From: a virus
Taxonomy: Duplodnaviria > Caudoviricetes
DNA length: 58,558 nt
Virus record (IMG/VR): IMGVR_UViG_3300047550_005955
Coordinates: 1-58,558 of that record
Direction: 5' to 3' (one strand)
Shown: positions 1,487-36,496 of the stretch, piece by piece
How the letters are laid out: each line of letters begins with the position of its first letter
How positions within the stretch are numbered: position 1 is the first letter of the stretch
The notes under the pieces: model-generated
Database searches by the model: none
The model's input: the letters and a program-made list of their open reading frames with translations, nothing else
Told to the model about the DNA's origin: nothing
Made by a program: the position numbers and the translations under genes

Positions 1487-1744
1487 ATGGGAATATTTTT
1501 TTACAGACCTTCACGCGGACTTCAACTGGTTTTCTCAGAAAGTTTTGAATATCCAAATTGGGAACAGACATTTGATGTCAACAACCTTCCATCGCCGGCA
1601 TTTTCTGGTTCAGCAATATTTGCGGAAAGTTTTGAATATCCAAATTGGGAACAGACATTTGATGTCAACAACCTTCCATCGCCGGCATTTTCTGGTTCAG
1701 TAATATATACAGAAGATTTTGATTCTAGTTGGGATGACACTTGA
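1487..1744 (+). CDS. Small acidic 'FFY' protein with three E-[SD]-F-[ED]-x2-3-W motifs
   Basis: 85 aa, begins MGIFFY, internal 29-aa tandem repeat, fits between flanking + strand genes. Confidence 0.65.
   Translation: MGIFFYRPSRGLQLVFSESFEYPNWEQTFDVNNLPSPAFSGSAIFAESFEYPNWEQTFDVNNLPSPAFSGSVIYTEDFDSSWDDT
1538..1700. repeat. Perfect 76-bp direct repeat, 87-bp period
   Basis: 1538-1613 is identical to 1625-1700; in frame within 1487..1744. Confidence 0.95.
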
Positions 1745-1778
1745 TTGATGCTTTTAGATTTACATAGGAGAAGTATTT

Positions 1779-2492
1779 ATGGCACAGACAGATTGGTTAA
1801 TATTAAGTTCTAGTAACAATATAGTTGGAGGCGGCGACGGTACTGCCACTTTGCATGCAAGTATGTCCAATCCGATTACAAGTTCTGGTGCCTTTTGCAG
1901 AACGTTTCAAAGTAACGATGAAAATCGGTGCTATTCTGTTTTTGTTCCAACTAGTTTGACCAGTTCTGTTTCTGGGTTTTCTCTCAATAAAGCCTACTCT
2001 TTGCGATGCTGGGCTAGAGTTACATTTGATTCAGACAATAGTGTTGCTTTGAGATTTAAAAGTACAACTGATTTAGATTTCAGTTTTAGCAATGAAAATT
2101 CGTACAAAGGAAGCGATGGTACCAGTAAAACAGGTTACGTTGCGTATCTTACGTATAATAGTCTCAAATTTACTGCGCAAAACGATCGCTCTGACGCCAG
2201 CAATATCGTTAACGAGACCGCTGTTGGTTCTTTGACAACAGATACGTGGTACCGAATAAGAATGGATGTTATACCATATAGTAGTTCTTATGATGTTATT
2301 AATATATACACCGGTAGCGAGAATGATACTTGGGGTCTTGTTTATACTAAATCGATTGCAAATTCGTCTATTAATGCTTATGTTCCATGGAATACTGGTT
2401 CACGAGGAGGCATAGGACTTACCGCTTATAGTCGAAGTTCTGCGCGCCCATCTCACTTTGACAAATTTGAATATTATGAGGAAAACATTTAA
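1779..2492 (+). CDS. ConA/lectin-like jelly-roll protein, paralog family member 1
   Basis: AGGAG RBS; WYRIRMDVIP and terminal FDKFEY strands typical of ConA-like folds; similar to 5358, 6128, 35849. Confidence 0.6.
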   Translation: MAQTDWLILSSSNNIVGGGDGTATLHASMSNPITSSGAFCRTFQSNDENRCYSVFVPTSLTSSVSGFSLNKAYSLRCWARVTFDSDNSVALRFKSTTDLDFSFSNENSYKGSDGTSKTGYVAYLTYNSLKFTAQNDRSDASNIVNETAVGSLTTDTWYRIRMDVIPYSSSYDVINIYTGSENDTWGLVYTKSIANSSINAYVPWNTGSRGGIGLTAYSRSSARPSHFDKFEYYEENI

Positions 2493-2502
2493 AGTATTTA
2501 CC

Positions 2503-2510
2503 CTATTTAT
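2503..2510 (+). promoter_or_regulatory. Putative late-promoter motif (C/A)TATTTA(T/C), one of many copies
   Basis: Same motif about 15-60 nt upstream of starts at 5330, 6104, 15019, 15041, 24541, 24675, 28912, 31970, 32589, 36574, 39994, 42907. Confidence 0.65.
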
Positions 2511-2532
2511 ATAAAAAGAAGAGGATAACAAA

Positions 2533-2937
2533 ATGTCGACAGATTTTATGAGTTTACACAGACCGGGTATAGGTAATGCTAGTTCTTATCAGGTATCTGG
2601 TATTCCTTGGGTATCTAGTTCTCTTGCTGTTCCGGCAACTAGCAGTGCTCCATTAGAAATATCTTTTCCGTTGGTTACTAAATCGATAATAGTAAAAAAT
2701 ATTTCTACGGGTAGTGTAAGTTTGAAAGTCGGATTTAGCGCCAATGGTGTATCCTCTGGATTTAACTATTTTTCTCTTTCTGCCGGTGAAAGTTTTTCGG
2801 CAGATCTAAAGATAACAAAACTATATCTTTTGTCAAGTACCGGTACACAACTGTCTGCTAGTGTGATTGCTGGATTAACAAACATCCCGGCAACAGAACT
2901 AGTAAGTAACTGGTCCGGTTCTGTGGGGGTCGGATGA
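2533..2937 (+). CDS. Hypothetical beta-rich virion protein
   Basis: GAGG RBS and late motif upstream; 134 aa, Ser-rich. Confidence 0.7.
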   Translation: MSTDFMSLHRPGIGNASSYQVSGIPWVSSSLAVPATSSAPLEISFPLVTKSIIVKNISTGSVSLKVGFSANGVSSGFNYFSLSAGESFSADLKITKLYLLSSTGTQLSASVIAGLTNIPATELVSNWSGSVGVG

Positions 2938-2938
2938 T

Positions 2939-4531
2939 ATGAGTTTTAATGATGGCTTTTCTATAAAAGGTATTCCGTTTGTATCTCCAATCCCAAATAC
3001 CGCTTCTCTTCTAATCTCAAATCCTGAAGGAACGGGATGGATTGCTGGTGATCTTGTTGACAATGTTGCGAGTGCATCCATAAATATTATATCAACAGTA
3101 GAAACCTCGGGCAATATCGAAGGCAACGGATCCTCAGTAGATAAAGTCAGACTAAAAAACAACATATCTCTGAATAGTGTTACTTCTTCTTTTAAAGGTA
3201 ATCTAGACGGTACATCCAGTTTTTCAATAAACTCTGAAACCGCATCTTATGTTCCAACTGGATCCGCAATACCAACATTTACTTCTGATGTTCGTGCACA
3301 ACTAAGTGGCTCGCAATATGTAACATATGGCGCTGTCAGCGGTGTAATATCTTTGCCATTTACTGGATCTACTCTCGGAACAACGCCGGTTATTTTAGGT
3401 ACAACAGTTATCAACATAAGTGGTCTGACCAGCATAGAGTCCACAAGCATAACCGCGTCTTCTGTTACTGCCAGTAATCTTCTTTCAACAAGAGCAGAAC
3501 TTAACAGCCTAACAGCCTCTTTCATAACATCAAGTCAAATACTTGCAACAAAAGAGCAACTAAATGAATTGACTGCATCTTTCATAACATCAAGTCAAAT
3601 ACTGGCAACAAAATCTCAGGTTAATAATCTAACTGCATCTTTGATAACATCAAGTCAAATATTGGCAACAAACGAGCAACTAACTTATTTAACTGCCTCA
3701 TTCATAACAGGCACACAACTTACGATCGATTATATAGACTACAATACATTAGCACCGGTACCAGCATTTAAAACCGGTCGACTGCATTATAATCCTGATA
3801 CGGCAGATTTAGAATATGATACTGATATTTCTAACGTAACTGTTCAATATGGACAGCAAACAGTTATTAAAGTTAAAAATGAAAACATACAAACAATAAA
3901 CAAGGGAAAACTCGTTAGAATAGTGGGTGGCTCTGGTGCAAATCCACTTATACGCACTGCTAGTTGGGAAAACGATGCCAACTCAGCAAATACACTCGGC
4001 ATGGTAATGCAAACAGTGTCACCAAATGGATTTACGTATGTGTTGTTGAATGGCGTTATTAAAGATATTAATCTACCAACAGCCACTTATACCGCTGGTG
4101 ACATATTGTATCTTTCTTCTAGCGGAGACTATACAAACGTTAAACCCGCTGCTCCAATACACACAGTGAGAGTAGGCGAGGTGGTACGTGCCCAAACAAG
4201 TACTGGTGTTGCGTTTATAAAAATAGATAACGGATATGAACTCGATGAACTACATGATGTTGTGGCAAAAACAGCATCATTGGGTGATTTAATAGCATAT
4301 GACGAATCTAATATGGTCTGGAGAAGCACAAAAACACTAAGTGGCAGTTATGTTGTTACAGGAACACTGTCTGCATCAAATATAACAGTCAATACGTTGA
4401 CTGGTTCAAAAATGTTCTTTAGTGCCAGCAACCCATCAAACTGGACGTCGCCGGCACCAACAACCATAGCGGATGCGATTAATAGAATAGCAGCAGCAGT
4501 TAGTGGCATATTAACCGGCACAATACCATGA
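2939..4531 (+). CDS. Fibre-like protein with 20-aa repeats and a capsid-cement-like C-terminal domain
   Basis: TASFITSSQILATKEQLNEL repeats; GKLVRIVG..TLGMV..NG.I..YTAGDILYLSS..G.YTNVKP pattern. Confidence 0.6.
   Translation: MSFNDGFSIKGIPFVSPIPNTASLLISNPEGTGWIAGDLVDNVASASINIISTVETSGNIEGNGSSVDKVRLKNNISLNSVTSSFKGNLDGTSSFSINSETASYVPTGSAIPTFTSDVRAQLSGSQYVTYGAVSGVISLPFTGSTLGTTPVILGTTVINISGLTSIESTSITASSVTASNLLSTRAELNSLTASFITSSQILATKEQLNELTASFITSSQILATKSQVNNLTASLITSSQILATNEQLTYLTASFITGTQLTIDYIDYNTLAPVPAFKTGRLHYNPDTADLEYDTDISNVTVQYGQQTVIKVKNENIQTINKGKLVRIVGGSGANPLIRTASWENDANSANTLGMVMQTVSPNGFTYVLLNGVIKDINLPTATYTAGDILYLSSSGDYTNVKPAAPIHTVRVGEVVRAQTSTGVAFIKIDNGYELDELHDVVAKTASLGDLIAYDESNMVWRSTKTLSGSYVVTGTLSASNITVNTLTGSKMFFSASNPSNWTSPAPTTIADAINRIAAAVSGILTGTIP
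3511..3710. repeat. 60-bp in-frame tandem repeat, about 3.3 copies
   Basis: ACWGCMTCT TTSATAACATCAAGTCAAAT units at about 3511, 3571, 3631 and a partial unit at 3691. Confidence 0.9.
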
Positions 4532-4542
4532 GGTAAAATGTT

Positions 4543-5322
4543 TTGTTTTTTTATTCGTCACCAGATCCACAACAGATCACTGGAAGCAACAACAGTGGAC
4601 AAAATAGTGGTTCGCAAAACGCGTCCGGTTCAAGTGGCTCTGTATCACTAACATATTCTTTTCAGGAACAGTTTGAAGATAGTTCCTGGCCAGGCTCAAC
4701 AAGAATAGATTGGACCGGAGTTGCTGATCCTGCTTCCGAAGCAGCAAATCTAGACTTTTCTGGGCTCTGGAGCGAATATGTTATTTATACCAGCATCTTC
4801 TCTTCATCTTTTGATATTGGTTCGGAATCTATGCAAGAACTATATGAGTATGGTTTGTCCGGATATGTCGATCCGCAGTTTCTTTTGGAACCAAATATTG
4901 ACGAGCAGTTTGACGACAACTCTTGGGATGGATTAACAAAAATCGATTGGACAGGAGTAGAAGATCCTGCTTCTTCCGCTGCCGATTTAGAACTATACGG
5001 ATCGTGGAGTGGAACTGTTTTATATTCATCAGTACCACAGCCAGATTTTACTAGTGGAAGCGATGGTTTTACAGAAATATACGAATATATGTCGACATAT
5101 GTCGAACCACAGTTTCTTCTAGAACCACAGATTAACGAACAGTTTGAAGATGCTTCTTGGGGAGGCTTATCAAAGATTGATTGGACAGGAGTGGAAGATC
5201 CGTATTCTTCTGCTGGTAGTTTAGAACTATACGGTTTGTGGAGCGGTACCGTTCTTTATTCGTCTGTACCACAACCAGATTTTGGTAGCGGTGTCTCTAA
5301 TTTCACAGAGACATATGAATGA
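4543..5322 (+). CDS. Acidic 'FFY' protein with three ~80-aa repeats (EQFEDxSW..IDWTGVEDP..E.YE)
   Basis: TTG start 8 nt after GAGGT; begins MFFY; very acidic. Confidence 0.7.
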   Translation: MFFYSSPDPQQITGSNNSGQNSGSQNASGSSGSVSLTYSFQEQFEDSSWPGSTRIDWTGVADPASEAANLDFSGLWSEYVIYTSIFSSSFDIGSESMQELYEYGLSGYVDPQFLLEPNIDEQFDDNSWDGLTKIDWTGVEDPASSAADLELYGSWSGTVLYSSVPQPDFTSGSDGFTEIYEYMSTYVEPQFLLEPQINEQFEDASWGGLSKIDWTGVEDPYSSAGSLELYGLWSGTVLYSSVPQPDFGSGVSNFTETYE

Positions 5323-5357
5323 TAGTATTCTATTTATATATACAAGGATAAAACGAC

Positions 5358-6104
5358 GTGGCTCTGACAGATTTTATATACGCTAGTAATCAAGGTTCTG
5401 GTGTTTTTACTACCGGCATTAGCGGTTCTACCGTTGCTCATAGTGCGCTCCCATCTCCACTACAAAACAATGGAAACTATTGCAGATACTGGAGAAGTAA
5501 CTACGGCTCAACCGGATATGTTAATCTTCTTGTCGCGGCAAATATATCGGGATTTAAATCGATTCCATCTACAAAAGCAGTGTCTGTGCGCGCTTGGCTT
5601 AGACCCGGCGCTGCTGCATCGGGTCGACCTGGTTATATTGGTTTGGTAGCGAAAGCGTCATCTGCAACGACACTAACTCCATCATGGGGATACAATTTTT
5701 ATATATTCGATAACACTAACTTTGCTGTTAATTTTGGTAGTATCATTAATACTGATTTTATTAGAAAATATGCAAATCCAACCGGAGGATCATTATACAG
5801 CAACTGGACACATATGAGAATGGACGTTATTCCGGTAAAAAACACGTCAAACAATATTGTTGCCGATAGAGTCAGGTGTTTTGTAGGAGACGGAAATATT
5901 AATGGCGAAACTTGGACTCTTGTTTCAGATCGATTTGCTGAAGCAACTGTACCATCTGGTATAACCCCACAATTTAAAAGTTGGGCTTCGGCAACTGACG
6001 CATATTACGGCTTTGGATCACACGGATCGGAACCAGGAAACGTTCAATTTAAAAACCTTGAGTTCTACGCGGACAACTTAGAGATATTGACAAAAACAAT
6101 ATAA
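5358..6104 (+). CDS. ConA/lectin-like jelly-roll protein, member 2
   Basis: MALTDF..YCRYW..AVSVRAWLR..WTHMRMDVIP..YADNLEI. Confidence 0.6.
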   Translation: MALTDFIYASNQGSGVFTTGISGSTVAHSALPSPLQNNGNYCRYWRSNYGSTGYVNLLVAANISGFKSIPSTKAVSVRAWLRPGAAASGRPGYIGLVAKASSATTLTPSWGYNFYIFDNTNFAVNFGSIINTDFIRKYANPTGGSLYSNWTHMRMDVIPVKNTSNNIVADRVRCFVGDGNINGETWTLVSDRFAEATVPSGITPQFKSWASATDAYYGFGSHGSEPGNVQFKNLEFYADNLEILTKTI

Positions 6105-6127
6105 TATTTACACCAGAGGATAACATT

Positions 6128-6826
6128 GTGGCACAAACAGATTTTACATTTTATGCGGGTGGTGCTGGTGGCATGGATACCTATTTACCATCACAAGGAA
6201 AGGCAACTTTCAACTCTGCGCTGTCTTCCCCTTTTACTGATGGTGGTATGTTTTGTCGAGAATGGTATACAAGATATTCTTCTGGTGACACTGGTTTTTT
6301 TGCAAGAATCAATCAGACTGGTTCTGTTGATAAGTTTACTGGCATGTATGCTGTTTCTATGCGTTGTGCCATAAGACCCGCTACTGCATCAAACGGAGAA
6401 ATAGTAACAAAAGCCGGTTTAATAGGCAAGGGTACCGCTACATATACTGCGATCAATTCAAACTCTTATTATTTTAGAGTAGAAAACAATACACAGTTTA
6501 ATTTTATGGGAACATCCATCAATAATCCTCTTAATACATCTCTTATGAATAAATGGACAAACTTAAGATTAGATGTTATTCCTGTTTTGTCTAATGCGAC
6601 AGTTACATCTGATATTGTGACAGCGTATGTTGAAAGTGGCTCTTTTGGTTCTGGTGAGTGGACACAAGTAACATCAAGTACGCTGGAAGTTGGAAATGCT
6701 AAGTTTATTGCTTGGGATAAGACAACTAAATTTTTTGGATTTGGTTTCTATGGAAATCCAGTTGCTGCAGCAGTACAGACCTGTTACTTTGATAAGTTTC
6801 AAGTTTACATAGACCCTCTCTCGTGA
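6128..6826 (+). CDS. ConA/lectin-like jelly-roll protein, member 3
   Basis: MAQTDF..FCREW..AVSMRCAIR..WTNLRLDVIP..YFDKFQV. Confidence 0.6.
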   Translation: MAQTDFTFYAGGAGGMDTYLPSQGKATFNSALSSPFTDGGMFCREWYTRYSSGDTGFFARINQTGSVDKFTGMYAVSMRCAIRPATASNGEIVTKAGLIGKGTATYTAINSNSYYFRVENNTQFNFMGTSINNPLNTSLMNKWTNLRLDVIPVLSNATVTSDIVTAYVESGSFGSGEWTQVTSSTLEVGNAKFIAWDKTTKFFGFGFYGNPVAAAVQTCYFDKFQVYIDPLS

Positions 6827-6899
6827 TTTTTTTACTTGTCTTTTTATAACGACGAGAGACTATATAAAATATAAAGTCGATTAGACTGGGAAAGTAAAG

Positions 6900-7037
6900 A
6901 TGTTTTTTTATTCTGAACCAGCAACAGTCCAAGTACCAGAAAACAACACGCCTGAAGTTCCAAACGGGGCTATTATGATTGAAGAGGGACTGTATCTTGT
7001 TTCGGAAGAAAACGGACTTTATATTGTACTAGAATAA
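6900..7037 (+). CDS. 45-aa acidic 'FFY' peptide (absent from ORF track)
   Basis: Manual translation MFFYSEPATVQVPENNTPEVPNGAIMIEEGLYLVSEENGLYIVLE*; fills the intergenic gap. Confidence 0.65.
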   Translation: MFFYSEPATVQVPENNTPEVPNGAIMIEEGLYLVSEENGLYIVLE

Positions 7038-7054
7038 TCTAGGAGAGAGACAAA

Positions 7055-7615
7055 ATGACGATTGTTAAAATATCTGAACTTACTTCATCTGCCGGCGTTT
7101 CATCTGGTGATTTATTTATCACCGCAGTAAGTGGAGCGGGTGGTTTCTCAACAAGAAAAGCAACAGCAGCACAGATATCAACTTATGTTAACTCAAGCCT
7201 CGACTCCCGTATTGCTTCAGAAGAAAGCACAAGAAGTTCTTCAGACAGCAGTTTAACCAGTCGCTTATCAAGCGAAGAATCAACCCGTGTTAGTGCCGAT
7301 TCTAGCATCGAGGCTCTTTTGGGAACAGGTTTGGCAACAGCAGTAGCAACATTAAGTTCGAATACTACTCTGGATACCTCTCATCACGTAATATTGGTAG
7401 ATGCAACATCTGCAGAGGTTACATTAACTCTACCAAATGCAACAACAACATCTGCAAGACAATATATGATTAAAAAGAAAGATTCCAGTTCTAATGCTGT
7501 TGTTGTTTCTGCGTCCAACTCACAAACAATAGATGGTCAAGCATCTACGTCTTTCAATACACAATATGAAGCAATAATGGTTGTAAGTGACGGTAGCAAC
7601 TGGTTTATATTCTAA
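7055..7615 (+). CDS. Short fibre: KISEL N-terminus, 18-aa coiled-coil repeats, small C-terminal tip domain
   Basis: AGGAG RBS; SEESTRSSSDSSLTSRL repeats as in 28979; VILVDAT..TLTLP..IKKKDS..SDGSNWFI tip. Confidence 0.7.
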   Translation: MTIVKISELTSSAGVSSGDLFITAVSGAGGFSTRKATAAQISTYVNSSLDSRIASEESTRSSSDSSLTSRLSSEESTRVSADSSIEALLGTGLATAVATLSSNTTLDTSHHVILVDATSAEVTLTLPNATTTSARQYMIKKKDSSSNAVVVSASNSQTIDGQASTSFNTQYEAIMVVSDGSNWFIF

Positions 7616-7636
7616 TCTTGGAAATAGGAGAAAAAA

Positions 7637-9370
7637 ATGTCTTATAATCCAAGAATAAAAAATATATCAGGTGGAACTGTAGATATATCTGGCTCATTAG
7701 CAGCGACAAATGTTTCTACATATGTGAGCGCATCAAATGCCAATATAGCAACTGTTGTTGCAAACAGTATAAGCGCTTCAACGGTTGATTCCGGAACTTC
7801 TTTAGATATAACACTAAAATCAGTTAAATCTTCGATCAGAAAAGTTACTTCCGGTACCAGCGTGCAAACTACTGATAGCGTTATATTGGTTGATGCAGCA
7901 AGTGGAAGTGTGGGTTTAACTCTTCCATCTGCCTCCCTTGTTCCCGGACAAAGATTTACTGTGAAAAAAGTTGATTCTACTGGCAATATCGTGTCGATAT
8001 ATCCACAAAAATCATCTTCGTCTTCTTCTTATTATGAAACAGATATATTATCTGGAAGTTTAGCCGTCACCAGTGGTGACGGCTTTGGTTATTCTGTGTC
8101 CTTAAATGATACTGGAGACAAAATGGCTGTTGGAGCATATCAGGACGAGAGCACTGGTCGTGTTTATGTTTTTTCTATAATAAATAATATTTGGATACAA
8201 GAAAAAATACTTAGCGGCTCCTTGTCCACTAGTGATGATATGTTTGGATATAAAGTTCTTATGAATCCTAGTGGCAACACAATATTTGTGGGTGTTCCAT
8301 TTGACGAAAAAGCACTGGTATCATCAACAGGGTTGGTGTATGTTTTTACGAGTGGCAGTTTCGGTTGGACCGAAACTGCGGTGTTGAGTGGTTCGCGCGC
8401 AATTGATGCTAGCGATAGTTTTGGATACTCTATTTCTCTTAATTCCTCTGGCAATCGATTGGTTGTCGGCGCCCTTACTGACGATCGTGCATCTGGCGGA
8501 ACAGATTGCGGATTAGCGTATGTTTTTTCTAGTGGAAGCGGCGGATGGATTGAGACCGCAATATTAAGCGGCACTTTGGCGTCCGGATCCGGTGATTATT
8601 TTGGATTTTCTGTTTCGATTAACTCAAATGGAGATAGAGTGGTAGTCGGCGCGCGCCAAGATGAAAGAAGTAGCCAAGTAACTACCCGTAACGAAGGATT
8701 GGCCTATGTGTTTGTCAGTTCTAGTGGCGGATGGTCTCAAGATGCTATATTGAGCGGCACACTTGCAACAGATGCGAATGATTATTTTGGTTGTGCAGTA
8801 TCTATTAACTCTGTTGGCGATCGATTGGTTGTTGGTGCCTTGCAGGATGAAAGATCTGGTGGTGCTGCCTCCAGTGGACTTGCTTATGTTTATAATAGCG
8901 GAAGTACCGGCTGGACGCAAAACGGAATATTGAGCGGGACTTTAGCAACTGGATCGGCTGATTATTTCGGATATTCCGTTCTTATGAATTCAAGCGGCAA
9001 TAAAATAATCATAGGAGCACAGTCAGACGAAATACCAAGTGCATCAGCCGCATATCAAAACTCTGGTCTTGTTTATGTTTTCACTAGTGGAAGTTCTGGG
9101 TGGTTTCAGAGCGATATATTGAGTGGAAGCGGTATTCAAGTATCTGATTATTTTGGCTCATCTCTTGCCATCAATTCTAGTGGAGATAAAATTATTATTG
9201 GATCCTATGAAGACGAACCACTTACTGCATCAAATGCTGCTAGTTGGGGGACAGTTTATGTCTTTTCGCAAGTACAAACAGTTGACAGCGCTGGAAAAAA
9301 ATCACTATCTTCTCAAAACGAATCAGTAACGGTCATTAGCGATGGAACCGGAAGTTGGAGTATAATATGA
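7637..9370 (+). CDS. Appendage protein with 7-blade FG-GAP (integrin-alpha-like) beta-propeller
   Basis: Seven D.FG.SV.IN..GD...VGA..D...G.VYVF repeats. Confidence 0.85.
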   Translation: MSYNPRIKNISGGTVDISGSLAATNVSTYVSASNANIATVVANSISASTVDSGTSLDITLKSVKSSIRKVTSGTSVQTTDSVILVDAASGSVGLTLPSASLVPGQRFTVKKVDSTGNIVSIYPQKSSSSSSYYETDILSGSLAVTSGDGFGYSVSLNDTGDKMAVGAYQDESTGRVYVFSIINNIWIQEKILSGSLSTSDDMFGYKVLMNPSGNTIFVGVPFDEKALVSSTGLVYVFTSGSFGWTETAVLSGSRAIDASDSFGYSISLNSSGNRLVVGALTDDRASGGTDCGLAYVFSSGSGGWIETAILSGTLASGSGDYFGFSVSINSNGDRVVVGARQDERSSQVTTRNEGLAYVFVSSSGGWSQDAILSGTLATDANDYFGCAVSINSVGDRLVVGALQDERSGGAASSGLAYVYNSGSTGWTQNGILSGTLATGSADYFGYSVLMNSSGNKIIIGAQSDEIPSASAAYQNSGLVYVFTSGSSGWFQSDILSGSGIQVSDYFGSSLAINSSGDKIIIGSYEDEPLTASNAASWGTVYVFSQVQTVDSAGKKSLSSQNESVTVISDGTGSWSII

Positions 9371-10332: not shown

Positions 10333-10339
10333 ACCTAAA

Positions 10340-28859: not shown

Positions 28860-28978
28860 AATCCTCTTGATATAACACACTATATCTATTTGTCTTTAGA
28901 TCGATTGCTAACTATTTACTAGCAACGCAACCAGTGTATCGCTGGTATGTTGTATTTTTATAAGGGAGATAAATAAAT

Positions 28979-31858
28979 ATGTCAAAACAGAAAGGTTTTG
29001 CAGTTATATCTGGCTCTAGCACAGTAGTAGCCAAGATAATGGAAAATGGGACCGTAGTATTCGGTCAGGATAAGCCAGTAAATCTACGCGTAAGCGGTAC
29101 ACTGGTTCTTGATCTTTCCGGTTCAGCAGGTGGTACTGGTAAGGTACTACACGTAGACGCAGCCGGCAGTGCTTCTTTAAGCAAAGTTGCTGCTAGTAAT
29201 GTAACGGTAAATGCAGTTGGTGGTGTATCTGGTGATAACGTCCAAGCAATATTGGAAGGTTTACAGAGCAATATTAGTGCTCTAGATACTGGTGCGAGCC
29301 AGGATCTTTCTAGCCTCGAGGCTCGCCTCTCTGGTGAAGAAGTTTCACGTTCTTCTGGCGACACTAGTCTCACTAGTAGACTTTCAGGTGAAGAAAGCAC
29401 CCGCGCTGCAGCAGTTAGTAGTTTAAACACTGCTTTAAGTACTGAAGTAGCAAGTTTAGATACTGTTATTTCTAACGAAGTTTCTAGTTTAGAAAGCAAA
29501 ATTAACGACGACATTAGCAGTCTAGTTAATGGTGCACCAAGCGTACTAGATACCCTCAAAGAACTCGCTGATGCGATTAGCGGCGACGCAAGTTTCGTAT
29601 CAACAGTATTCAGCAAGGATTCTAGTCTAGAAGCAGCCATTTCTTCAGAAGTGTCTGCCCGTGAAAGTGCAGTAACCTCATTGCAATCGGCTCTTGAATC
29701 ATCGGCATCTACCGATTTTGCAAGTGTTGATACACGTTTAAGTGCAGCAGAATCTACCGAAGCAGCAGATGTAGATAGTCTTGATTCAAGATTGTCAACT
29801 GCCGAAGCGGATCACGATTCAGACGTACTCAGCATTGATAATAGACTTTCAACTGAAGAAAATGCTCGCGGTTCAGCAGATACCAGCCTAACCAGCCGCC
29901 TATCAACTGAAGAAAATGCCCGCGCTAGCGCAGATTCTTCATTAGAATCTAAACTTAGTGCTGACATGTCTGCCGAAGCAAGTATTCGTGCAAGTGCTGA
30001 TAGCAGTCTAACCAGCCGCTTGTCAACCGAAGAAAGCGCTCGTTCAAGTGCCGATGGTAGTATCGACGCTCGTGTAAGTGCAGAAGAAAGTACACGCGCT
30101 GCAGCAGATACCAGCCTAACAAGCCGTTTATCAACTGAAGAAAGTGCACGTACAAGTGCAGTATCAAGTGTTGATAGTCGCGTTTCATCCGAAGAAAGCG
30201 CTCGTGCAAGTGGAGACAGCAGTCTCGCTTCCGCTCTCTCGGCTGAATCTTCGACACGCGCAAGTGCAGACAGCAGTCTAGCATCTGCCGTTTCAGCCGC
30301 AGAAAGTTCTGCTAACAGTTATACCGATTCAGCAGTTGCTGCATTGGTTGATAGTGCACCAGAACTTCTCAACACACTAAATGAACTTGCTGCAGCACTA
30401 GGCGATGACGCAAACTTCGCTACAACCGTAACAAGTACCATTGCTTCTAACGTTGCAAGTATAGAGGCAGTAGTATCAGGTGAAGCAAGTACTCGTGCAA
30501 GTGCAGATTCTTCATTAGAATCGAAACTTAGTGCCGATATGTCTACCGAAGCCAGCACCCGTGCAAGTGCTGACAGTAGCCTAACAAGTCGCTTATCATC
30601 TGAAGAAAGTGCCCGTGCAAGTGCAGATTCTTCACTTGAATCAAAACTAAGCGCTGACATGTCAACTGAAGCCAGTACTCGTGCAAGTGCTGACAGCAGT
30701 TTGACCAGTCGTTTGTCATCTGAAGAAAGTACTCGTACAGCAGCAGTTTCAAGTGTTGATTCTCGTGTTTCAACCGAAGAAAGTGCTCGTGCAAGTGCTG
30801 ATAGCAGCCTAACAAGCCGCTTATCAACCGAAGAAAGTGCACGTACAAGTGCAGATTCCAGTATTGATGCTCGTGTCAGCACTGAAGAATCAACACGCGC
30901 TTCCGCTGATAGTAGTCTAACAAGTCGTCTATCAACTGAAGAAAGTGCACGCGCAAGTGCAGACAGTAGTCTATCAAGCGCTCTATCAAGTGAAGAATCA
31001 TCCCGTGTTTCTGGCGATGCATCCGTATTAACGTCTGCAAACAGTTACACAGATTCTGCTGTAGCGGCTCTTGTTGATTCTGCTCCAGCACTTCTTGATA
31101 CACTAAATGAACTTGCTGCAGCACTGGGCGATGATCCAAACTTTGCTACAACTGTAACAAGTACGATCGCCAGCCACAACGCAGCGTTGTCAAGCGATAT
31201 TTCAACCGAAGCAAGTACTCGTGCTTCTGCTGATAGCAGCCTAACAAGTCGCTTATCAACCGAAGAAAGTGCACGTTCCTCTGCTGATAGTAGTCTAACA
31301 AGTCGCCTATCAACTGAAGAAAGTACTCGCGATTCAGCCGATAGTAGCCTAACAAGCCGTCTATCAACTGAAGAGAGTGCTCGTACTTCTGCTGATAGTA
31401 GCCTAACAAGCCGTCTATCAAGCGAAGAATCAGCGCGCGCGGCAGGAGATGATTCTCTTGATACTCGCCTCGATAATGTTGAAGCAACCACTCTTGTAAT
31501 CAATGGCACAGCCAATGAAGTTACAGTAACTGGTTCATTCGCATTTGGTGTTGCAAATACGTTCACAATCGGTCTACCAGATGATGTAACCGTTGCTGGT
31601 AACCTAACTGTAAATGGAAACGCAACACTAGGTGATAGTTCTGCTGATCAAGTGACTGTTAACGGTAAGTTCCAGGCTCCTAAGTTTACCGCTCTAACAA
31701 TCCCAGCAGCATACACCTCTGGTGATCAGTCGGCTAATAATGGACATATGTTCTATCTTGATGCCGCTGATGATGCTGTAGCCGCCTTCCCACAGGGACA
31801 GAAATGGTACTTCTGTGAAGACGGTGAATGGCATGCAAGTCCATTCTTTGCTGAATGA
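28979..31858 (+). CDS. Long coiled-coil fibre (18-aa repeats)
   Basis: Dozens of RASADSSLTSRLSTEESA-type units; three SAP..L.TL.ELAAA..D..F segments typical of phage fibres. Confidence 0.8.
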   Translation: MSKQKGFAVISGSSTVVAKIMENGTVVFGQDKPVNLRVSGTLVLDLSGSAGGTGKVLHVDAAGSASLSKVAASNVTVNAVGGVSGDNVQAILEGLQSNISALDTGASQDLSSLEARLSGEEVSRSSGDTSLTSRLSGEESTRAAAVSSLNTALSTEVASLDTVISNEVSSLESKINDDISSLVNGAPSVLDTLKELADAISGDASFVSTVFSKDSSLEAAISSEVSARESAVTSLQSALESSASTDFASVDTRLSAAESTEAADVDSLDSRLSTAEADHDSDVLSIDNRLSTEENARGSADTSLTSRLSTEENARASADSSLESKLSADMSAEASIRASADSSLTSRLSTEESARSSADGSIDARVSAEESTRAAADTSLTSRLSTEESARTSAVSSVDSRVSSEESARASGDSSLASALSAESSTRASADSSLASAVSAAESSANSYTDSAVAALVDSAPELLNTLNELAAALGDDANFATTVTSTIASNVASIEAVVSGEASTRASADSSLESKLSADMSTEASTRASADSSLTSRLSSEESARASADSSLESKLSADMSTEASTRASADSSLTSRLSSEESTRTAAVSSVDSRVSTEESARASADSSLTSRLSTEESARTSADSSIDARVSTEESTRASADSSLTSRLSTEESARASADSSLSSALSSEESSRVSGDASVLTSANSYTDSAVAALVDSAPALLDTLNELAAALGDDPNFATTVTSTIASHNAALSSDISTEASTRASADSSLTSRLSTEESARSSADSSLTSRLSTEESTRDSADSSLTSRLSTEESARTSADSSLTSRLSSEESARAAGDDSLDTRLDNVEATTLVINGTANEVTVTGSFAFGVANTFTIGLPDDVTVAGNLTVNGNATLGDSSADQVTVNGKFQAPKFTALTIPAAYTSGDQSANNGHMFYLDAADDAVAAFPQGQKWYFCEDGEWHASPFFAE
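29310..31475. repeat. Degenerate 54-bp coding tandem array with higher-order duplications
   Basis: Recurrent GATAGCAGCCTAACAAGCCGCTTATCAACCGAAGAAAGTGC-like units. Confidence 0.9.
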
Positions 31859-31888
31859 TAGTATAATATAAACTACTTGTTTTAGTTT

Positions 31889-31918
31889 AGCCGGCGCCTT
31901 AGTGGCGCCGGTTTTTTT
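31889..31918 (+). terminator. Rho-independent terminator
   Basis: CCGGCGCC-TTAGT-GGCGCCGG followed by T7. Confidence 0.9.
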
Positions 31919-31999
31919 GTGTTTATTAAAAAAAATGCTGTTTTTTTGGCTAAAATAGCATTTTGTTCCATATTTATAAGCGTAGCAAGCGAGTAATAT

Positions 32000-32551
32000 A
32001 TGTCTAAAGGGCTTTCTGTAGTAAGCGGTTCAACTCACGTACACAAACTATTAAGCGACGGAACAGTAAGTTTTAGTGGTTCTGTACAAATCACCGGAAC
32101 AATAATACCGGAAGGTGATGGCGCGCGTTCATTAGGTTCTGACGAAAAAAGATGGTCAGATGTTTATGCAATACAAACAACAGTTGGTGCGGTTTTCGAA
32201 ACTGGTCTTACAACTATTGGATTGGGAGAGTATCCAACTGGAACTGTTGTTATTTGGGAAAGTGGAAAAGTAAAGCCATGTAATACAAAAGAAGACTGCA
32301 GAGTTGTTGGAGCAACAAAGCATGGAAAAGATCAACCTATTATATTAGGCGCAGAATATGTGTTGGTAACAGGAAAAGTCAAAGAGGGAGACTGGATAGT
32401 TACCAGCGAAACGGCGGGACATGGTTGTGCTGCAAAAATATACGGCTTTTTTGGCAAAAGACGTGATTTATTTGGAAAAGTAATAGGTCAAGCGCTTGAA
32501 GATTCTGATGCTGAAAGTGCACTTATTAAATGCTTTATAAAGAAAATCTAG
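32000..32551 (+). CDS. Fibre-associated protein with a peptidase G2/intramolecular-chaperone-like domain
   Basis: LGS..KRW.DVYA then GTVV..VVG..V.VTG.VK.GD.IVTS..AGHG..VIG.ALED; N-terminus resembles 28979. Confidence 0.55.
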   Translation: MSKGLSVVSGSTHVHKLLSDGTVSFSGSVQITGTIIPEGDGARSLGSDEKRWSDVYAIQTTVGAVFETGLTTIGLGEYPTGTVVIWESGKVKPCNTKEDCRVVGATKHGKDQPIILGAEYVLVTGKVKEGDWIVTSETAGHGCAAKIYGFFGKRRDLFGKVIGQALEDSDAESALIKCFIKKI

Positions 32552-32633
32552 TTTTTAACGCAAAAATGGCATCTTATAAAAAATAAAACTATTTATTTCA
32601 GATAAAAGTGTATTTTCTCTAGGAGTATGTTTA

Positions 32634-33851
32634 ATGAGTAGTTCAAAATTATTAGAACAAGCAATAGTTGACGCACAAGCATTACGTGATGCCGCGTTTA
32701 AAAGTGCGCAAGAAACTCTTTTGGAAAAATACGCCCCACAAATAAAAGAAGCAGTTCAGCAACTGCTAGAACAAGAAGAAGAGACGCCAGATGCCGATAC
32801 TGCTAGTCCAACAGATGCATTGGCCGGTGGGCAATCTGATATGCCATTAACTGATTTTGGTGGAAGCGCTGAAACATCGATGGGTAAAGGCAAAGTTGCT
32901 GGAACAGCAAATGAGTTACCATTAGCGGCTACTGACGGTGAAAAACTATGTCCTTGCCCAGATGATGACAAAGAAGTCGAAGTAGAACTAGATTTAGGCG
33001 CTCTTGCCGATCAACTAAGCGATGAAGCAGAAGAGGAAGAAGCACCTGGATTAGAATCCGGTCCAGCAACAGGTATGATGGGTTCTCCACAGGCTGCTGG
33101 TGGTGCTACCGCTCTTCAAGAAGATATTGAAGAAGTAGCCGGTGATAAGATGATGTCATTAGGCGAAGAAGAACTTCTTGAAGTTTCATTAGACGAACTT
33201 TTGACCACAGAAGAACAGTTAGAAGAAGATGAAGTCGAAGAAGCGAAAGATGGCGTTCCTGAAACCGAAAGGGAAAAAGAACTTGCAGCAATGGCGCCAC
33301 CAAAAAACAAGATCACACGCGGCGATGTAGTTGCAGCAAAAATAGCAAGCGGCAAAAAAGAAGAATCATTAAGCGAATCAAAAGCAAAACAACTATTAAC
33401 CGCATCTACCGAACTATTAAAAGAACACAAGTCTCTCCTGAAATCAGTCGAGAGCAAAGATGAAAAAATCAAACAACTGTTGGATGAGAACAAAAAATTC
33501 GCATCCACTATAGAAGAAATGTCGCAAGCATTTAAGAAACTTGAAGAAGTTAATCTTACAAATGCCCGACTCTTCTATTCAAATCAGGTCTTGAAAAGCG
33601 CCTCCTTGAATGAGCGACAAAAAAATCACATTGTCGATGCTGTTTCAAAGGCTGATTCTGTAAATGAGGCAAAAACGGTATATGAAACACTGGTCAATTC
33701 AGTGGGTGCACCATTAGACAAAGAAAGGTCACCAAAATCACTGAATGAAGCAATCAGCAAAAAGAGTTCATTCCGTCTGCCTCACAAGCAAGCAGAACAA
33801 CCCGCAGATCCAAATAAAGATCGCTGGTTAAAATTAGCCGGTATTAAATAA
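32634..33851 (+). CDS. Prohead scaffold/core protein
   Basis: Acidic and helical, directly upstream of MCP; VNLTNARL.Y, terminal RWLKLAGIK. Confidence 0.8.
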   Translation: MSSSKLLEQAIVDAQALRDAAFKSAQETLLEKYAPQIKEAVQQLLEQEEETPDADTASPTDALAGGQSDMPLTDFGGSAETSMGKGKVAGTANELPLAATDGEKLCPCPDDDKEVEVELDLGALADQLSDEAEEEEAPGLESGPATGMMGSPQAAGGATALQEDIEEVAGDKMMSLGEEELLEVSLDELLTTEEQLEEDEVEEAKDGVPETEREKELAAMAPPKNKITRGDVVAAKIASGKKEESLSESKAKQLLTASTELLKEHKSLLKSVESKDEKIKQLLDENKKFASTIEEMSQAFKKLEEVNLTNARLFYSNQVLKSASLNERQKNHIVDAVSKADSVNEAKTVYETLVNSVGAPLDKERSPKSLNEAISKKSSFRLPHKQAEQPADPNKDRWLKLAGIK

Positions 33852-33879
33852 TACCAAATATACTTTAAGGAGTTTAAAA

Positions 33880-35550
33880 ATGTCAGTTATCAAACGTTTA
33901 ACAGAAGGCGTAGTAAAACGTGACCTCGAAAAAGAAGGTGGCGCTCTACTATCAAAATGGTCAGAAACAGGTCTATTAGAAGGTATTGGCGATGAAAAAG
34001 CCAAGGCTTCAATGGCTCGTCTATTAGAAAATCAGGCTCAGGAACTACTCCGCGAAGCCAATACAATGACAGGAGGTGATGTAGAAGGTTTTGCCGCCGT
34101 AGCGTTCCCAATTGTACGCCGCGTGTTCGGTCAGTTGATTGCTAATGAACTCGTTAGCGTACAGCCAATGAGTTTACCAAGTGGACTTATCTTCTTCCTA
34201 GACTTCACCTTTGATCGTACACGTTCAGGTGCAGTAGTAAGTTCATCACTATTCGGTGGTGGCGTAGTAGGTTCACAGTTAACCGGTGGTGTTAGTCTTT
34301 CCGGTCTTAATGCTGAAAACTCACTTCGTGCATTAAACAACGGTTATTCACTCGATACCGGTTCGAACAGTGTCACATGTACATTGGTTGCCAGTGGTAC
34401 TTTTGGTACCGGCGATGTTGCTCTAGATAAACTTTGCAAGTTTGATCCAGATGTTGCCGTAAGTTCGTCCGTAGCAGTGTTTACTGTTTTGGCAAGTGCA
34501 CTTTCACAACTAGATCGCACCAATCTTATTGCGATCTCGGGTACCTTTGAAAGTGGTTCATTAGTACGTCGTTTAAGTACTGCCGCTGATTCAACTGGTG
34601 CTGCAATGGGTGGAGAAGCATTTACCCATGTTCGTCTAGTTGTAGTTGGTACTGGTGCTGCAAGTCTAGCAACTGGTGCTCGTGCATTAACTTGGCCATT
34701 ACGTGATGCTCTTGGTAATGTTGGTGCTGGTGCAATCGGTGCTATCGTCGCCTCACAGGTAACCTTTGAAGGCGAAGCAAACATTCCAGAAATCGACATC
34801 AAAGTTGACAGTGTCGCTGTAACTGCTAAGAGTCGCAAACTCAAAGCCAAGTGGACACCAGAACTTGGTCAAGATCTCAATGCTTACCACAATCTAGATG
34901 CAGAAGTTGAGTTGACCTCAATTCTCAGCGAACAGATTGGTCTTGAAATCGATCAGGAAATGTTAGGTGAACTAGTACGTGGTGCAACTGCTGCAACCCT
35001 ATACTGGTCACGTCGTCCGGGTAAGTTCCTTGATCGTACAACCGGTGTAGCAATCGCCAACGGTTCAACCGATCTAAATGGCGCTGACTTTACCGGTAAC
35101 GTAAGTATGTGGTATGAAACCCTCGTTGAAACAATCAACGATGTATCAGCCGCTATCCACCGTAAGACACTTCGTGGTGGTGCAAACTTCGTTGTTTGCG
35201 GACCAGAAGTTGCTAACATCCTTGAGTTCACCACTGGATTCCGTGCAAACGTAGTCCATGATGATGCCAAGGGTACAATCGGTGCAGTCAAAGCCGGTTC
35301 ACTAAGCAAGAAATGGGATGTATTTGTTGATCCGTACTTCCCACGTAACATCGTGCTCGTAGGTCGTAAAGGTTCCAGTTTCCTTGAAAGTGGATTCGTT
35401 TACGCTCCATACGTACCACTACAAGTTACGCCAACCATCTTTGGTACCGAAGACTTCGTACCACGTAAGGGTGTTATGACTCGTTATGCCAAGAAGATGG
35501 TACGTCCAGATATGTATGGCTTGGTGGTAGTCGAAGATCTTCTAGGTTGA
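33880..35550 (+). CDS. Major capsid protein (T4 gp23-like)
   Basis: VSVQPMSLPSGLIFFLD, RKLKAKWTPELGQDLNAYH.LDAE.EL, YAPYVPL, KGVMTRY. Confidence 0.97.
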   Translation: MSVIKRLTEGVVKRDLEKEGGALLSKWSETGLLEGIGDEKAKASMARLLENQAQELLREANTMTGGDVEGFAAVAFPIVRRVFGQLIANELVSVQPMSLPSGLIFFLDFTFDRTRSGAVVSSSLFGGGVVGSQLTGGVSLSGLNAENSLRALNNGYSLDTGSNSVTCTLVASGTFGTGDVALDKLCKFDPDVAVSSSVAVFTVLASALSQLDRTNLIAISGTFESGSLVRRLSTAADSTGAAMGGEAFTHVRLVVVGTGAASLATGARALTWPLRDALGNVGAGAIGAIVASQVTFEGEANIPEIDIKVDSVAVTAKSRKLKAKWTPELGQDLNAYHNLDAEVELTSILSEQIGLEIDQEMLGELVRGATAATLYWSRRPGKFLDRTTGVAIANGSTDLNGADFTGNVSMWYETLVETINDVSAAIHRKTLRGGANFVVCGPEVANILEFTTGFRANVVHDDAKGTIGAVKAGSLSKKWDVFVDPYFPRNIVLVGRKGSSFLESGFVYAPYVPLQVTPTIFGTEDFVPRKGVMTRYAKKMVRPDMYGLVVVEDLLG

Positions 35551-35570
35551 TCTTAAAATAATCTAGATGA

Positions 35571-35604
35571 GAAAGCCCGCCTGAAATATGGCGGGTTTCT
35601 TTTT
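35571..35604 (+). terminator. Rho-independent terminator after MCP
   Basis: GAAAGCCCGCC..GGCGGGTTTC plus T-tract. Confidence 0.85.
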
Positions 35605-35718
35605 CTATCGTCGTCATATCATCTTGTCAACAAAAACATAAAAGAATATTCAGAGTTTTTAGAACTATATATATGTGTTACGCTGTTATCTAGCAGCACA
35701 TTAATGGAGACATAAAAT

Positions 35719-35811
35719 ATGTTTTTTTATAAAGAAGTTGTAGTAGAGAATCCTTTTGAACTAATCACTACTGGTGTTGAAGATTTTGAGGCTGCCGGTG
35801 GATGGTTATAA
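35719..35811 (+). CDS. 30-aa acidic 'FFY' peptide (absent from ORF track)
   Basis: GGAG RBS; MFFYKEVVVENPFELITTGVEDFEAAGGWL*. Confidence 0.65.
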   Translation: MFFYKEVVVENPFELITTGVEDFEAAGGWL

Positions 35812-35848
35812 AGAATTTTGCTTTTTAAAATATAAGGAGAAATAAAAA

Positions 35849-36496
35849 ATGGCTTATTCAGATTGGAGTATTTATTTGCCAAACAATGGCTATGCGGCAC
35901 AAAGCGCTAAGGCGTATGGCAATGATTTTCCAGCACCAACTGGCAACAGCGGCTATTATTGTCGTGAATTAGTAGAGAGTGCAGAAATATATGCATCTGG
36001 TTCGCAATTTATCAATGTTAGCAGTGAATATGCGATAAGAGTTCAGGCGCTTGTCAAGGGCAATATAATGTTGTATATAAATGCCGGCACGATTAATGGC
36101 TACCAGCATAATGGATTTACTTTCCGAGTGGGTGCATATTACTGGATGTCGCAAGTAGTGATGGAGGGTGCGCAAGGAAACAGTGTTAATGTGCACAGTA
36201 TATCAGATGGTACTATTCAATTTCCAAATACTAACTGGAACAGCATTAGATTTACTTTATATCCAATAAATGAAACCCAAGACAGGGTTATTGGAGAAGT
36301 AGAACAGGGAATTGGAAGCGGCATATGGCTTAAATCATTTACCGGATCAAACGGGATGACGGCTACAATGGATGCCGTTATGAACAACCAACCGGGTGTC
36401 GCTGGACGTCGAGTCGGTGTGCGCGCTGGTGGTGGCACAGGATATGTTGATCAACTAAGTGTGTCCTTGGCGGCATTACCAGTTGCTATACCCTGA
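35849..36496 (+). CDS. ConA/lectin-like jelly-roll protein, member 4
   Basis: AAGGAG RBS; MAYSDW..YCREL..YAIRV..WNSIRFTLYP..DRV..YVDQLSV. Confidence 0.6.
   Translation: MAYSDWSIYLPNNGYAAQSAKAYGNDFPAPTGNSGYYCRELVESAEIYASGSQFINVSSEYAIRVQALVKGNIMLYINAGTINGYQHNGFTFRVGAYYWMSQVVMEGAQGNSVNVHSISDGTIQFPNTNWNSIRFTLYPINETQDRVIGEVEQGIGSGIWLKSFTGSNGMTATMDAVMNNQPGVAGRRVGVRAGGGTGYVDQLSVSLAALPVAIP

What the first reader, a model, noticed from the sequence alone, without database searches (positions are those of the whole stretch)
1487..36496. Recurrent two-gene cassette: acidic 'FFY' adaptor plus lectin-like jelly-roll that may lack its first strand (candidate in-trans display system)
Seen: four acidic ORFs begin with FFY (1487 MGIFFY, 4543 MFFY, 6900 MFFY, 35719 MFFY); two are too short for the ORF track. 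Three sit immediately upstream of members of one paralog family (1779; 5358+6128; 35849) and carry 3, 3 and 1 copies of E-[DSQ]-F-[ED]-x2-4-W (ESFEYPNW, EDFDSSW, EQFEDSSW, EDFEAAGGW). The 35719+35849 pair is a self-contained unit between two terminators, 29 kb from the others. Known: many ConA/GH16/CBM-type jelly rolls start with an F-x-D-D-F-[ED] strand that packs beside the terminal F/I-D-x-h strand at a Ca2+ site. The four partners keep the terminal strand (FDKF, ADNL, FDKF, VDQL) but start directly at MAxTD[WF]. Inference: the FFY proteins donate the missing strand in trans, FFY anchors them to the virion, and repeat number sets how many lectin domains are displayed.
Basis: partly seen in the sequence, partly recalled or inferred. 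Interest (0 to 1): 0.85.

Follow-up and report, generated by a model that had tools for sequence, protein, structure and literature searches.

The report
Phage adaptor-plus-lectin-fold gene pair
An uncultured T4-like freshwater phage carries three copies of a previously undescribed gene pair, a tiny acidic repeat protein followed by a lectin-fold protein, that recurs in other uncultured phages and probably forms a docking system for surface proteins, though binding itself is not yet shown.

Summary
All four FFY-start ORFs and all four jelly-roll paralogs are at the stated coordinates. The pairing is far beyond chance. A frame carrying [ED]xF[ED]x2-5W ends -4 to +44 nt before the first partner gene in 9 of 9 partner clusters: 3 in the window and 6 in other phage contigs, GC 0.36-0.57. 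The control rate in unrelated phage loci is 1 of 327 ORFs.

Both halves are real families with no Pfam or PHROG model. The partners have 286 representative clusters, and 116 of the 150 listed begin M-[ASTGP]-x-x-D-[WFY] at residue 1. The adaptors gave 20 proteins with aromatic N-termini and the last motif at the C-terminal end. Two natural fusions of adaptor and partner exist.

The partner models as a complete ConA/LamG-like sandwich on its own. The claim that it lacks a strand is therefore not supported. In a modelled natural fusion, the adaptor part adds one N-terminal strand.

Long relatives carry cadherin, PKD, Ig, LamG or RCC1 domains after this domain. In near-identical strains, partner amino-acid changes cluster in loop residues 79-125.

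Best reading: a two-part dock-and-display module on the virion. Binding is inferred, not shown.

The parts
32..1483 (+). Fibre-like protein directly upstream of the first adaptor. Its C-terminal domain matches phrog_8780 (minor tail protein).
   Evidence: The fibre upstream of the L005 adaptor carries the same C-terminal domain.
1487..1744 (+). Adaptor 1 (85 aa, MGIFFY...). Three docking motifs; contains an 87-bp tandem duplication.
   Evidence: Relatives P0165 and P0171 (56 aa) have 2 motifs.
1779..2492 (+). Partner 1, ConA/LamG-like jelly-roll family (237 aa, MAQTDW...).
2533..2937 (+). 134-aa protein of unknown family that also follows the partner in L110.
   Evidence: 55% identity to L110:3348-3740. 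No Pfam or PHROG hit.
4543..5322 (+). Adaptor 2 (259 aa, TTG start, MFFY...). Three repeats of about 78 aa, each opening with EQF[ED]D..W.
   Evidence: Repeats show pN/pS of 0.29-0.60.
5358..6104 (+). Partner 2a (248 aa, MALTDF...).
6128..6826 (+). Partner 2b (232 aa, MAQTDF...).
6900..7037 (+). FFY small protein of a second type (45 aa). It has MFFYSE at the N-terminus and two copies of E[EN]GLY[LI]V[SL]E at the C-terminus, and precedes fibre-like gene 7055-7615.
   Evidence: Relative P0180 is 68% identical, with both ends conserved and the middle diverged.
35573..35598 (+). Terminator-like hairpin after the major capsid gene.
35719..35811 (+). Adaptor 3 (30 aa, MFFYKEVVVENPFE...EDFEAAGGWL). 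One terminal motif.
   Evidence: No nucleotide change in two natural haplotypes.
35849..36496 (+). Partner 3 (215 aa, MAYSDW...). This is the one that was modelled.
36083..36223 (+). Variable patch of partner 3 (codons 79-125). It falls in the low-confidence loops.
   Evidence: All 12 of 12 and 8 of 8 amino-acid changes of two natural haplotypes fall here. pLDDT blocks there are 54-77.
36519..36546 (+). Terminator-like hairpin after partner 3.

Best explanation
This is a two-component surface module of uncultured T4-like and jumbo phages.

Component 1 is a small, very acidic adaptor. It has an aromatic N-terminal peptide (FFY type, or in some phages a larger N-terminal domain). It also has 1-4 copies of a short docking motif, h-h-[FY]-x-[ED]-x-F-[ED]-x2-5-W, with the last copy usually at the extreme C-terminus.

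Component 2 is encoded immediately downstream. It is a roughly 215-250 aa ConA/LamG-like beta-sandwich whose conserved free N-terminus, (M)A-x-[ST]-D-[WF], begins at residue 1.

Inferred mechanism:
- Each motif docks one sandwich domain next to that N-terminus, probably by adding an edge beta-strand and pairing its acidic residues with the family's conserved arginines.
- The adaptor's N-terminal end fixes the assembly to a fibre (cassettes at 1487 and 4543) or to the head (cassette at 35719).
- The sandwich exposes variable loops as a ligand-binding surface. In some phages it instead carries extra adhesion domains.

Shown: gene pairing, family conservation, natural fusions, fold class, and a localised variable patch.
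Inferred: physical binding, strand addition, virion location and valency.
For: - Adjacency: 9 of 9 partner clusters have a motif-bearing frame ending -4 to +44 nt upstream, across GC 0.36-0.57. The control is 1 of 327 ORFs in 78 unrelated phage loci.
- Natural fusions: P0080 (seen on 3 contigs) and P0086 (1 contig) carry an adaptor-type N-terminus, then ENFE or EQNFE, then the partner domain.
- Adaptor family: 20 proteins were called independently in other assemblies. N-termini include MGIYFY, MIFY, MGFFF, MGVVFY, MGIIFF and MRPGFINSF. All 12 rows of alignment A6 end in LESFE..GGW or a close variant.
- Partner N-terminus: fixed at residue 1 in 116 of 150 representatives.
- Fusion model: AF2 of P0080 (pLDDT 86.4) places an extra strand at residues 11-16 just before ENFES, while residues 1-6 are disordered.
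- Domain architecture: long family members have this domain first, followed by cadherin, PKD, Big_13, LamG_3 or RCC1.
- Co-inheritance: the AAGGW-type adaptors (35719, L005) go with the ..P.PIP-ending partner subfamily.
- Coding evidence: 4543 repeats give pN/pS of 0.29-0.60. SD-like sequences lie 8-10 nt before the starts of 1487, 4543 and 35719.
- Strain variation: all amino-acid changes in partner 35849 fall in residues 79-125, and only synonymous changes occur elsewhere in the gene.
- Modular ends: the 6900 protein and P0180 keep both ends while the linker diverges.
Against: - No direct evidence of binding exists.
- The partner models as a complete domain alone, with a confident N-terminus. 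Nothing requires a donated strand.
- In the fusion model the ExFE residues are a turn, not the strand, and the added strand has only moderate confidence.
- Motif number and partner gene number do not correlate.
- No virion proteomics is available, and no cultured phage carries either family: three tblastn searches of 50,697 phage records found nothing.
- Only 6 independent non-window loci could be examined.
- P0086 is a singleton from a 943-bp contig.
- The strain comparison rests on two haplotypes from assembled contigs.
Confidence: 0.55

Rival explanations
1. Strict in-trans strand complementation. The partner is an incomplete jelly roll that cannot fold or function until the ExFE strand of the adaptor fills an open groove, as a split protein does.
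For: - Natural fusions place ENFE or EQNFE 2-3 residues before the partner's SDF start.
- The fusion model adds an N-terminal strand.
- Several of the 23 family representatives without the standard start carry short hydrophobic N-terminal extensions in cis, such as MALGLILSSSD or MVAISQSDF.
Against: - The partner alone models at pLDDT 85.5 with the N-terminal block at 92, and has a full set of about 12 strand elements.
- ExFE itself is modelled as a turn.
- 116 of 150 family members start at the same residue with no sign of truncation.
- The premise that related jelly rolls begin with FxDDF[ED] is recalled and was not tested here.
Confidence: 0.2
2. The small protein is a transient assembly chaperone or cap. 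It would serve either the upstream fibre, like tail-fibre assembly proteins encoded after fibre genes, or the jelly roll, and would be absent from the mature virion.
For: - 1487 and 4543 follow fibre-like genes directly. The L005 adaptor overlaps the stop of a fibre gene with the same phrog_8780 C-terminal domain.
- Chaperone caps on phage fibres are described in PMC10579305. Only the search listing and the start of the abstract were seen.
Against: - 35719 follows the capsid gene across a terminator.
- L007, L110 and L008 fuse the motifs to larger N-terminal parts.
- Natural fusions join the adaptor to the partner, not to the fibre.
- No hit to any Tfa or chaperone family was found in Pfam or PHROGs.
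Confidence: 0.15
3. The FFY starts reflect a DNA or RNA signal, (A/T)TGTTTTTTTAT (a T7 run: slippage site, promoter or terminator element), and the short ORFs are incidental.
For: All four FFY starts use the same T7 run, and 4 of the 12 T>=7 runs on the + strand are these.
Against: - Relatives keep aromatic or hydrophobic N-termini with other sequences and codons, such as MGVVFY, MIFY and MRPGFINSF.
- The ORFs are conserved as proteins in other assemblies.
- The 4543 repeats are under purifying selection.
- TTT is simply the expected Phe codon at 37.6% GC.
Confidence: 0.03

Closest known systems
ConA-like lectin/glucanase (LamG-type) domains on phage virions, e.g. the LamG domain-containing protein of Erwinia phage Ea35-70 (BFVD W6B1H1), plus legume lectins and TtX122 domains in the PDB
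   Same: Two-sheet jelly-roll fold. Foldseek probability is 1.0 with TM 0.41-0.55. The C-terminal strand resembles ..Y[IF]D.F.v. The nearest ESM Atlas clusters include a 'putative LamG' cluster.
   Different: The window proteins have no Pfam hit. Only 2 of 115 family members touch Laminin_G_3, with best E 5.7e-4. TM values are modest. The conserved start at residue 1 and the obligate upstream motif gene are not features of known LamG families, as far as I recall.
Adaptor or branched receptor-binding assemblies of phages (G7C gp66/gp63.1, CBA120 tailspikes, SP6/K1-5 adaptors). Recalled, not checked here.
   Same: A separate protein links one or more receptor-binding proteins to the virion. The genes are clustered.
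   Different: Those use folded N-terminal docking domains. Here the adaptor is a 30-260 aa acidic protein with repeated short linear motifs and a 3-5 residue aromatic N-terminus.
Donor-strand complementation in chaperone-usher pili. Recalled.
   Same: It shares the idea of a beta-strand supplied by another polypeptide to the edge of a sandwich domain.
   Different: Pilins have an incomplete Ig fold with an open groove. Here the domain models as complete, and strand addition is seen only in a model of a cis fusion.
Cohesin-dockerin scaffoldins of cellulosomes. Recalled; analogy only.
   Same: A scaffold with repeated docking sites could hold several copies of a beta-sandwich module.
   Different: There is no sequence or fold relation. 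The scaffold sites here are roughly 10-25 residue peptides, not folded cohesins.
T4 Hoc-type head decoration. Recalled.
   Same: One cassette sits right after the major capsid gene. Long relatives carry Ig, cadherin or PKD adhesion domains.
   Different: Hoc is a single chain with its own capsid-binding domain. No homology was detected.

Membership tests
ConA-like lectin/glucanase fold (structural superfamily) | Two-sheet antiparallel jelly-roll sandwich similar to solved members | tested here: met
   - AF2 model of 35849: pLDDT 85.5.
- Foldseek against the PDB: 2w68_B at E 1.4e-5, 1fat and 1ioa at TM 0.48-0.51.
- P0080 model: 103 hits at E<=1e-3, with legume lectins at TM about 0.49.
Pfam Laminin_G_3 (PF13385) | Score above the Pfam gathering threshold | tested here: not met
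   0 of 4 window partners match. Only 2 of 115 family members match at E<=0.01, with best E 5.7e-4.
Lectin (carbohydrate-binding) function | Sugar and/or Ca2+ binding site residues | not testable with these tools
   No residue-level superposition is available. The only indirect hint is a variable loop patch at residues 79-125.
Donor-strand complementation systems | Acceptor domain lacks a strand and exposes a groove | tested here: inconclusive
   The partner models as complete alone. The cis-fusion model adds a strand at residues 11-16. No coordinates could be inspected.
Donor-strand complementation systems | Demonstrated inter-chain strand insertion | not tested
   No usable complex model or experiment exists.
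Tail-fibre assembly chaperones (Tfa/gp38-like) | Homology to a known chaperone family | tested here: not met
   No Pfam or PHROG hit for any adaptor.
Tail-fibre assembly chaperones (Tfa/gp38-like) | Encoded directly after the fibre gene | tested here: inconclusive
   True for 1487 and 4543. Not true for 6900 or 35719.
New adaptor family (this report) | Aromatic N-terminus, at least one [ED]xF[ED]x2-5W motif, and a partner gene immediately downstream | tested here: met
   1487, 4543 and 35719 meet all three features. 6900 meets only the first.

The most novel reading that the evidence does not exclude
This is a peptide-scaffold display system. A minimal acidic scaffold carries tandem short linear motifs, and each motif captures one ConA-like domain by beta-strand augmentation at that domain's free N-terminus. 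Tandem duplication or loss of an 87-bp unit would then tune how many receptor-binding domains a fibre or capsid site displays. The same FFY anchor is reused with other docking motifs (the 6900 type), pointing to a general rule in these phages: the C-terminal motif of gene n docks the N-terminus of gene n+1.
Probability: 0.3. Interest if true: 0.8.

Novelty: new variant of a known kind. Interest (0 to 1): 0.62.

Why it matters
If the pair binds as inferred, it would be a very small, modular way for phages to attach and multiply receptor-binding or adhesion domains. It would rest on a short peptide motif of roughly 10-25 residues and a roughly 220-residue sandwich domain.

That would explain a recurrent block of dark-matter genes in Far-T4-like and jumbo phages of aquatic metagenomes. 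It would also give a handle on host-range variation, through the variable loop patch and the repeat-number polymorphism. A natural peptide/domain docking pair could be useful for display engineering.

It also shows that ORFs of 30-50 aa, normally dropped by gene callers, can be conserved structural parts.

Tried and rejected
- Complex prediction on 35849 (with alignment A2) plus the 30-aa 35719 peptide gave scores of 0.00 and 0.01. The verdict was 'no answer' and the controls were not run. This is no evidence either way.
- The look-up of sequencing runs listed no RNA holder, so expression could not be examined.
- The search for related loci failed for lack of a conserved stretch with A2 on viral contigs and with A4 on genome contigs. 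The machine was unavailable twice.
- The metagenome scan with A4 added only one new usable locus, L010.
- The scan with full-length P0032 retrieved 78 loci through its C-terminal LamG_3 domain only. These served as the background set.
- The scan with adaptor alignment A6 refound only the L005 record.
- The DNA pattern for E-D-F-D-x-x-W-x-G-T matched 11 stretches. Only 1 of them, the L007 record, had a partner downstream. The rest look like chance matches.
- tblastn of a window partner, the L005 partner and adaptor P0170 against 50,697 GenBank phage records found no match.
- The word-index search with partner 6128 found only itself and one 88% relative.
- The ESM Atlas gave no usable hit for the 4543 protein.
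- The T4 late-promoter consensus TATAAATA is not enriched on the coding strand: 2 of 12 matches.
- Frameshift or readthrough fusion of adaptor and partner is rejected. Frame offsets differ between cassettes, each partner has its own SD-like sequence and ATG/GTG start, and the Met at residue 1 is conserved.
- An isopeptide (SpyTag-like) link was considered and set aside. The partner family has no invariant or nearly invariant Lys.
- A DGR origin for the variable patch was considered and set aside. The substitutions are not adenine-specific.
- Three literature searches returned nothing on this cassette (listings and abstract starts only).
Full report
**Context.** The window is a 58,558-bp IMG/VR virus record, estimated about 32% complete. 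All long ORFs lie on the + strand. Its major capsid protein (33880-35550) is T4-type. The best matches are about 48-52% identical over about 65% of its length, to Flavobacterium phage immuto, Microcystis phage Mel-JY01 and uncultured jumbo phages; Rhodothermus phage RM378 matches at 40%. This fits the uncultivated 'Far-T4' phages (PMC4360716; only the listing and abstract start were seen). No GenBank phage shares DNA with the first 12 kb.

**Observation.**
- 4543 starts at TTG, the only in-frame start after the stop at 4534-4536.
- SD-like sequences precede 1487 (AGGAG), 4543 (GAGG) and 35719 (GGAG).
- The motif [ED]xF[ED]x2-5W occurs 8 times in the + strand frames of the whole window, 7 of them in the three adaptors.
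- The partners are paralogs at 17-26% identity, and there is no fifth copy.
- The 35719/35849 pair lies between two terminator-like hairpins.
- Minor corrections are listed in the observation check.

**Is the pairing real?** I looked for partner homologs elsewhere without reference to the small ORF.
- A profile of the four paralogs finds 286 representative clusters at E<=1e-3 among 1.84 billion proteins.
- None of the 10 looked up carries an informative name; the few names given are 'hypothetical protein'.
- Six independent contigs with upstream sequence could be fetched: L005 (a 371-kb terminally redundant jumbo phage), L006, L007, L008, L010 and L110.
- In all six, and in the three window clusters, a frame bearing the motif ends between 4 nt inside and 44 nt before the first partner gene. 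That is 9 of 9, across GC 0.36-0.57.
- In 78 unrelated phage loci, the motif lay within 300 nt upstream of 1 of 327 ORFs of at least 150 aa.
- In 8 of 9 clusters the last motif is within the final 14 residues. 4543 has longer repeats and is the exception.

**The adaptor family.**
- A profile of seven adaptors retrieves 20 proteins called independently in other assemblies.
- Their N-termini are MGIYFY, MIFY, MGFFF, MGVVFY, MGIIFF, MPQYY, MPTWFFF or MRPGFINSF, often followed by [DE]P[FW].
- Their bodies are 1-3 repeats such as ..PLESFEY.G.WPGT...YP.TFTGF.TPS.., and they end in PLESFE..GGW.
- The FFY feature is therefore a protein-level trait, not a by-product of the T7 run.
- P0165 equals the window's 1487 protein minus one 29-aa unit. 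The window copy carries an 87-bp tandem duplication at 93% identity. Repeat number is thus polymorphic among close relatives.
- The three long repeats of 4543 differ mostly at synonymous sites, with pN/pS of 0.29-0.60.
- In L007, L110 and L008 the motifs sit at the C-terminus of larger proteins. The N-terminal end is therefore the exchangeable part.

**Fusions.** Two partner-family proteins carry an entire adaptor in cis. P0086 begins MFFYSEAPFRIDQWTLQYEQNFEI-MPSDFSY.. and P0080 begins MGGILFNKGTRSVVATENFESIS-SDFDFYV... P0080 was seen on 3 contigs. P0086 was seen on one 943-bp contig.

**The partner.**
- It has no Pfam or PHROG model.
- 116 of 150 representatives start M-[ASTGP]-x-x-D-[WFY] at residue 1, and 127 do by a looser rule. 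Several of the other 23 have short hydrophobic extensions such as MALGLILSSSD.
- AF2 with a 115-sequence alignment gives pLDDT 85.5 and pTM 0.84, with the first ten residues at 92.
- Foldseek places it among ConA-like lectin folds. PDB matches include the V. cholerae sialidase lectin domain, PHA-L, arcelin and TtX122, at TM 0.41-0.51. BFVD matches include phage LamG-type proteins at TM up to 0.55.
- Sequence links are faint: 2 of 115 members match Laminin_G_3, and a PDB profile hit at E 0.15 covers only the last strands.
- The domain therefore does not look truncated.

**The fusion model.** AF2 on P0080 gives pLDDT 86.4.
- Residues 1-6 are disordered.
- Residues 11-16 (RSVVAT) form an added strand, with block pLDDT about 75.
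- ENFES is a turn or short helix.
- The family's first strand (FDFYV) follows.
- This is compatible with strand augmentation by the hydrophobic stretch before ExFE. It is only a model of a cis fusion, and I could not inspect contacts.

**What the domain is for.**
- Family members with C-terminal extensions have this domain first, followed by cadherin repeats, PKD, Big_13, LamG_3 or RCC1 repeats. In phage fibre and decoration proteins the N-terminal part usually attaches and the C-terminal part binds; this rule is recalled. The conserved sandwich may therefore be the docking module.
- Contigs from four public aquatic or freshwater runs were laid on the 35719/35849 cassette. X3 was identical and covered only part of it. 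X6 and X9 share one haplotype and X10 has another, each about 98% identical over the 1,001 bases (20-21 differences).
- All amino-acid changes in the partner (12 of 12 and 8 of 8 changed codons) fall in residues 79-125. Those are the low-confidence loops.
- The other hit codons in the gene are synonymous (5 and 6).
- No change occurs between 35616 and 35949, which includes the 30-aa ORF.
- A localised variable patch suits an exposed ligand-binding surface. The sample is small.

**Where it sits.**
- 1487 and 4543 directly follow fibre-like genes. The fibre upstream of the L005 adaptor shares the phrog_8780 C-terminal domain with window ORF 32-1483.
- The third cassette follows the capsid gene.
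- A 134-aa protein follows the partner both here and in L110, at 55% identity.
- These placements suggest tail-fibre and head sites but do not prove them.

**The 6900 ORF.** It lacks the motif. Its 68%-identical relative P0180 keeps MFFYSE and the C-terminal IEEGLYLVSEENGLYIVLE exactly while the middle diverges. The same anchor seems to be combined with another C-terminal motif. That motif lies in front of a fibre gene starting M..KISEL. In L005 a similar C-terminal ..EDGDILITESGDLITL also precedes a M..KRISEL fibre.

**Verdict.** The cassette is real, conserved and undescribed in the libraries and the three literature searches I ran. The most likely function is a dock-and-display module. The specific claim that the jelly roll lacks its first strand is not supported. 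Strand addition remains a reasonable mechanism. Physical binding, virion location and valency are untested.

Noticed in passing
window 6900-7037 and 7055-7615; L005:136-1875 and 1905-2549: A second possible docking pair. A C-terminal double motif lies directly upstream of a fibre gene whose product starts M..K(R)ISEL. The motif is E[EN]GLY[LI]V[SL]E twice in the window and EDGDILITESGDLITL in L005.
   Followed up: partly
window 2533-2937; L110:3348-3740: A 134-aa protein of no known family follows the partner gene in both phages, at 55% identity.
   Followed up: partly
window 2504, 5331, 15788, 16122, 31971, 36575 (+ strand TATTTATA): 10 of the 12 TATAAATA matches are on the minus strand, reading TATTTATA on the coding strand. 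Several lie 20-30 nt before gene starts (2533, 5358, 32000, 36609). This may be a phage promoter or leader element.
   Followed up: no
window 3510-3709: A 60-bp tandem repeat (3.3 copies, 79% matches) inside fibre gene 2939-4531 encodes a 20-aa ..LTASFITSSQILATKEQLN.. repeat.
   Followed up: no
window 7637-9370: The 577-aa protein has about eight repeats of ..ILSG....D.FGYSV..N..G....VGA..DE.., resembling FG-GAP or beta-propeller repeats. It has no PHROG hit.
   Followed up: no
window 33880-35550: The T4-type major capsid protein aligns to relatives in two pieces covering only 60-65% of its length. This suggests a large insertion domain.
   Followed up: no
window 36609-37925: The 438-aa protein after the third cassette has a C-terminal match to phrog_211 (head-tail adaptor Ad2, E 2.6e-10).
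   Followed up: no
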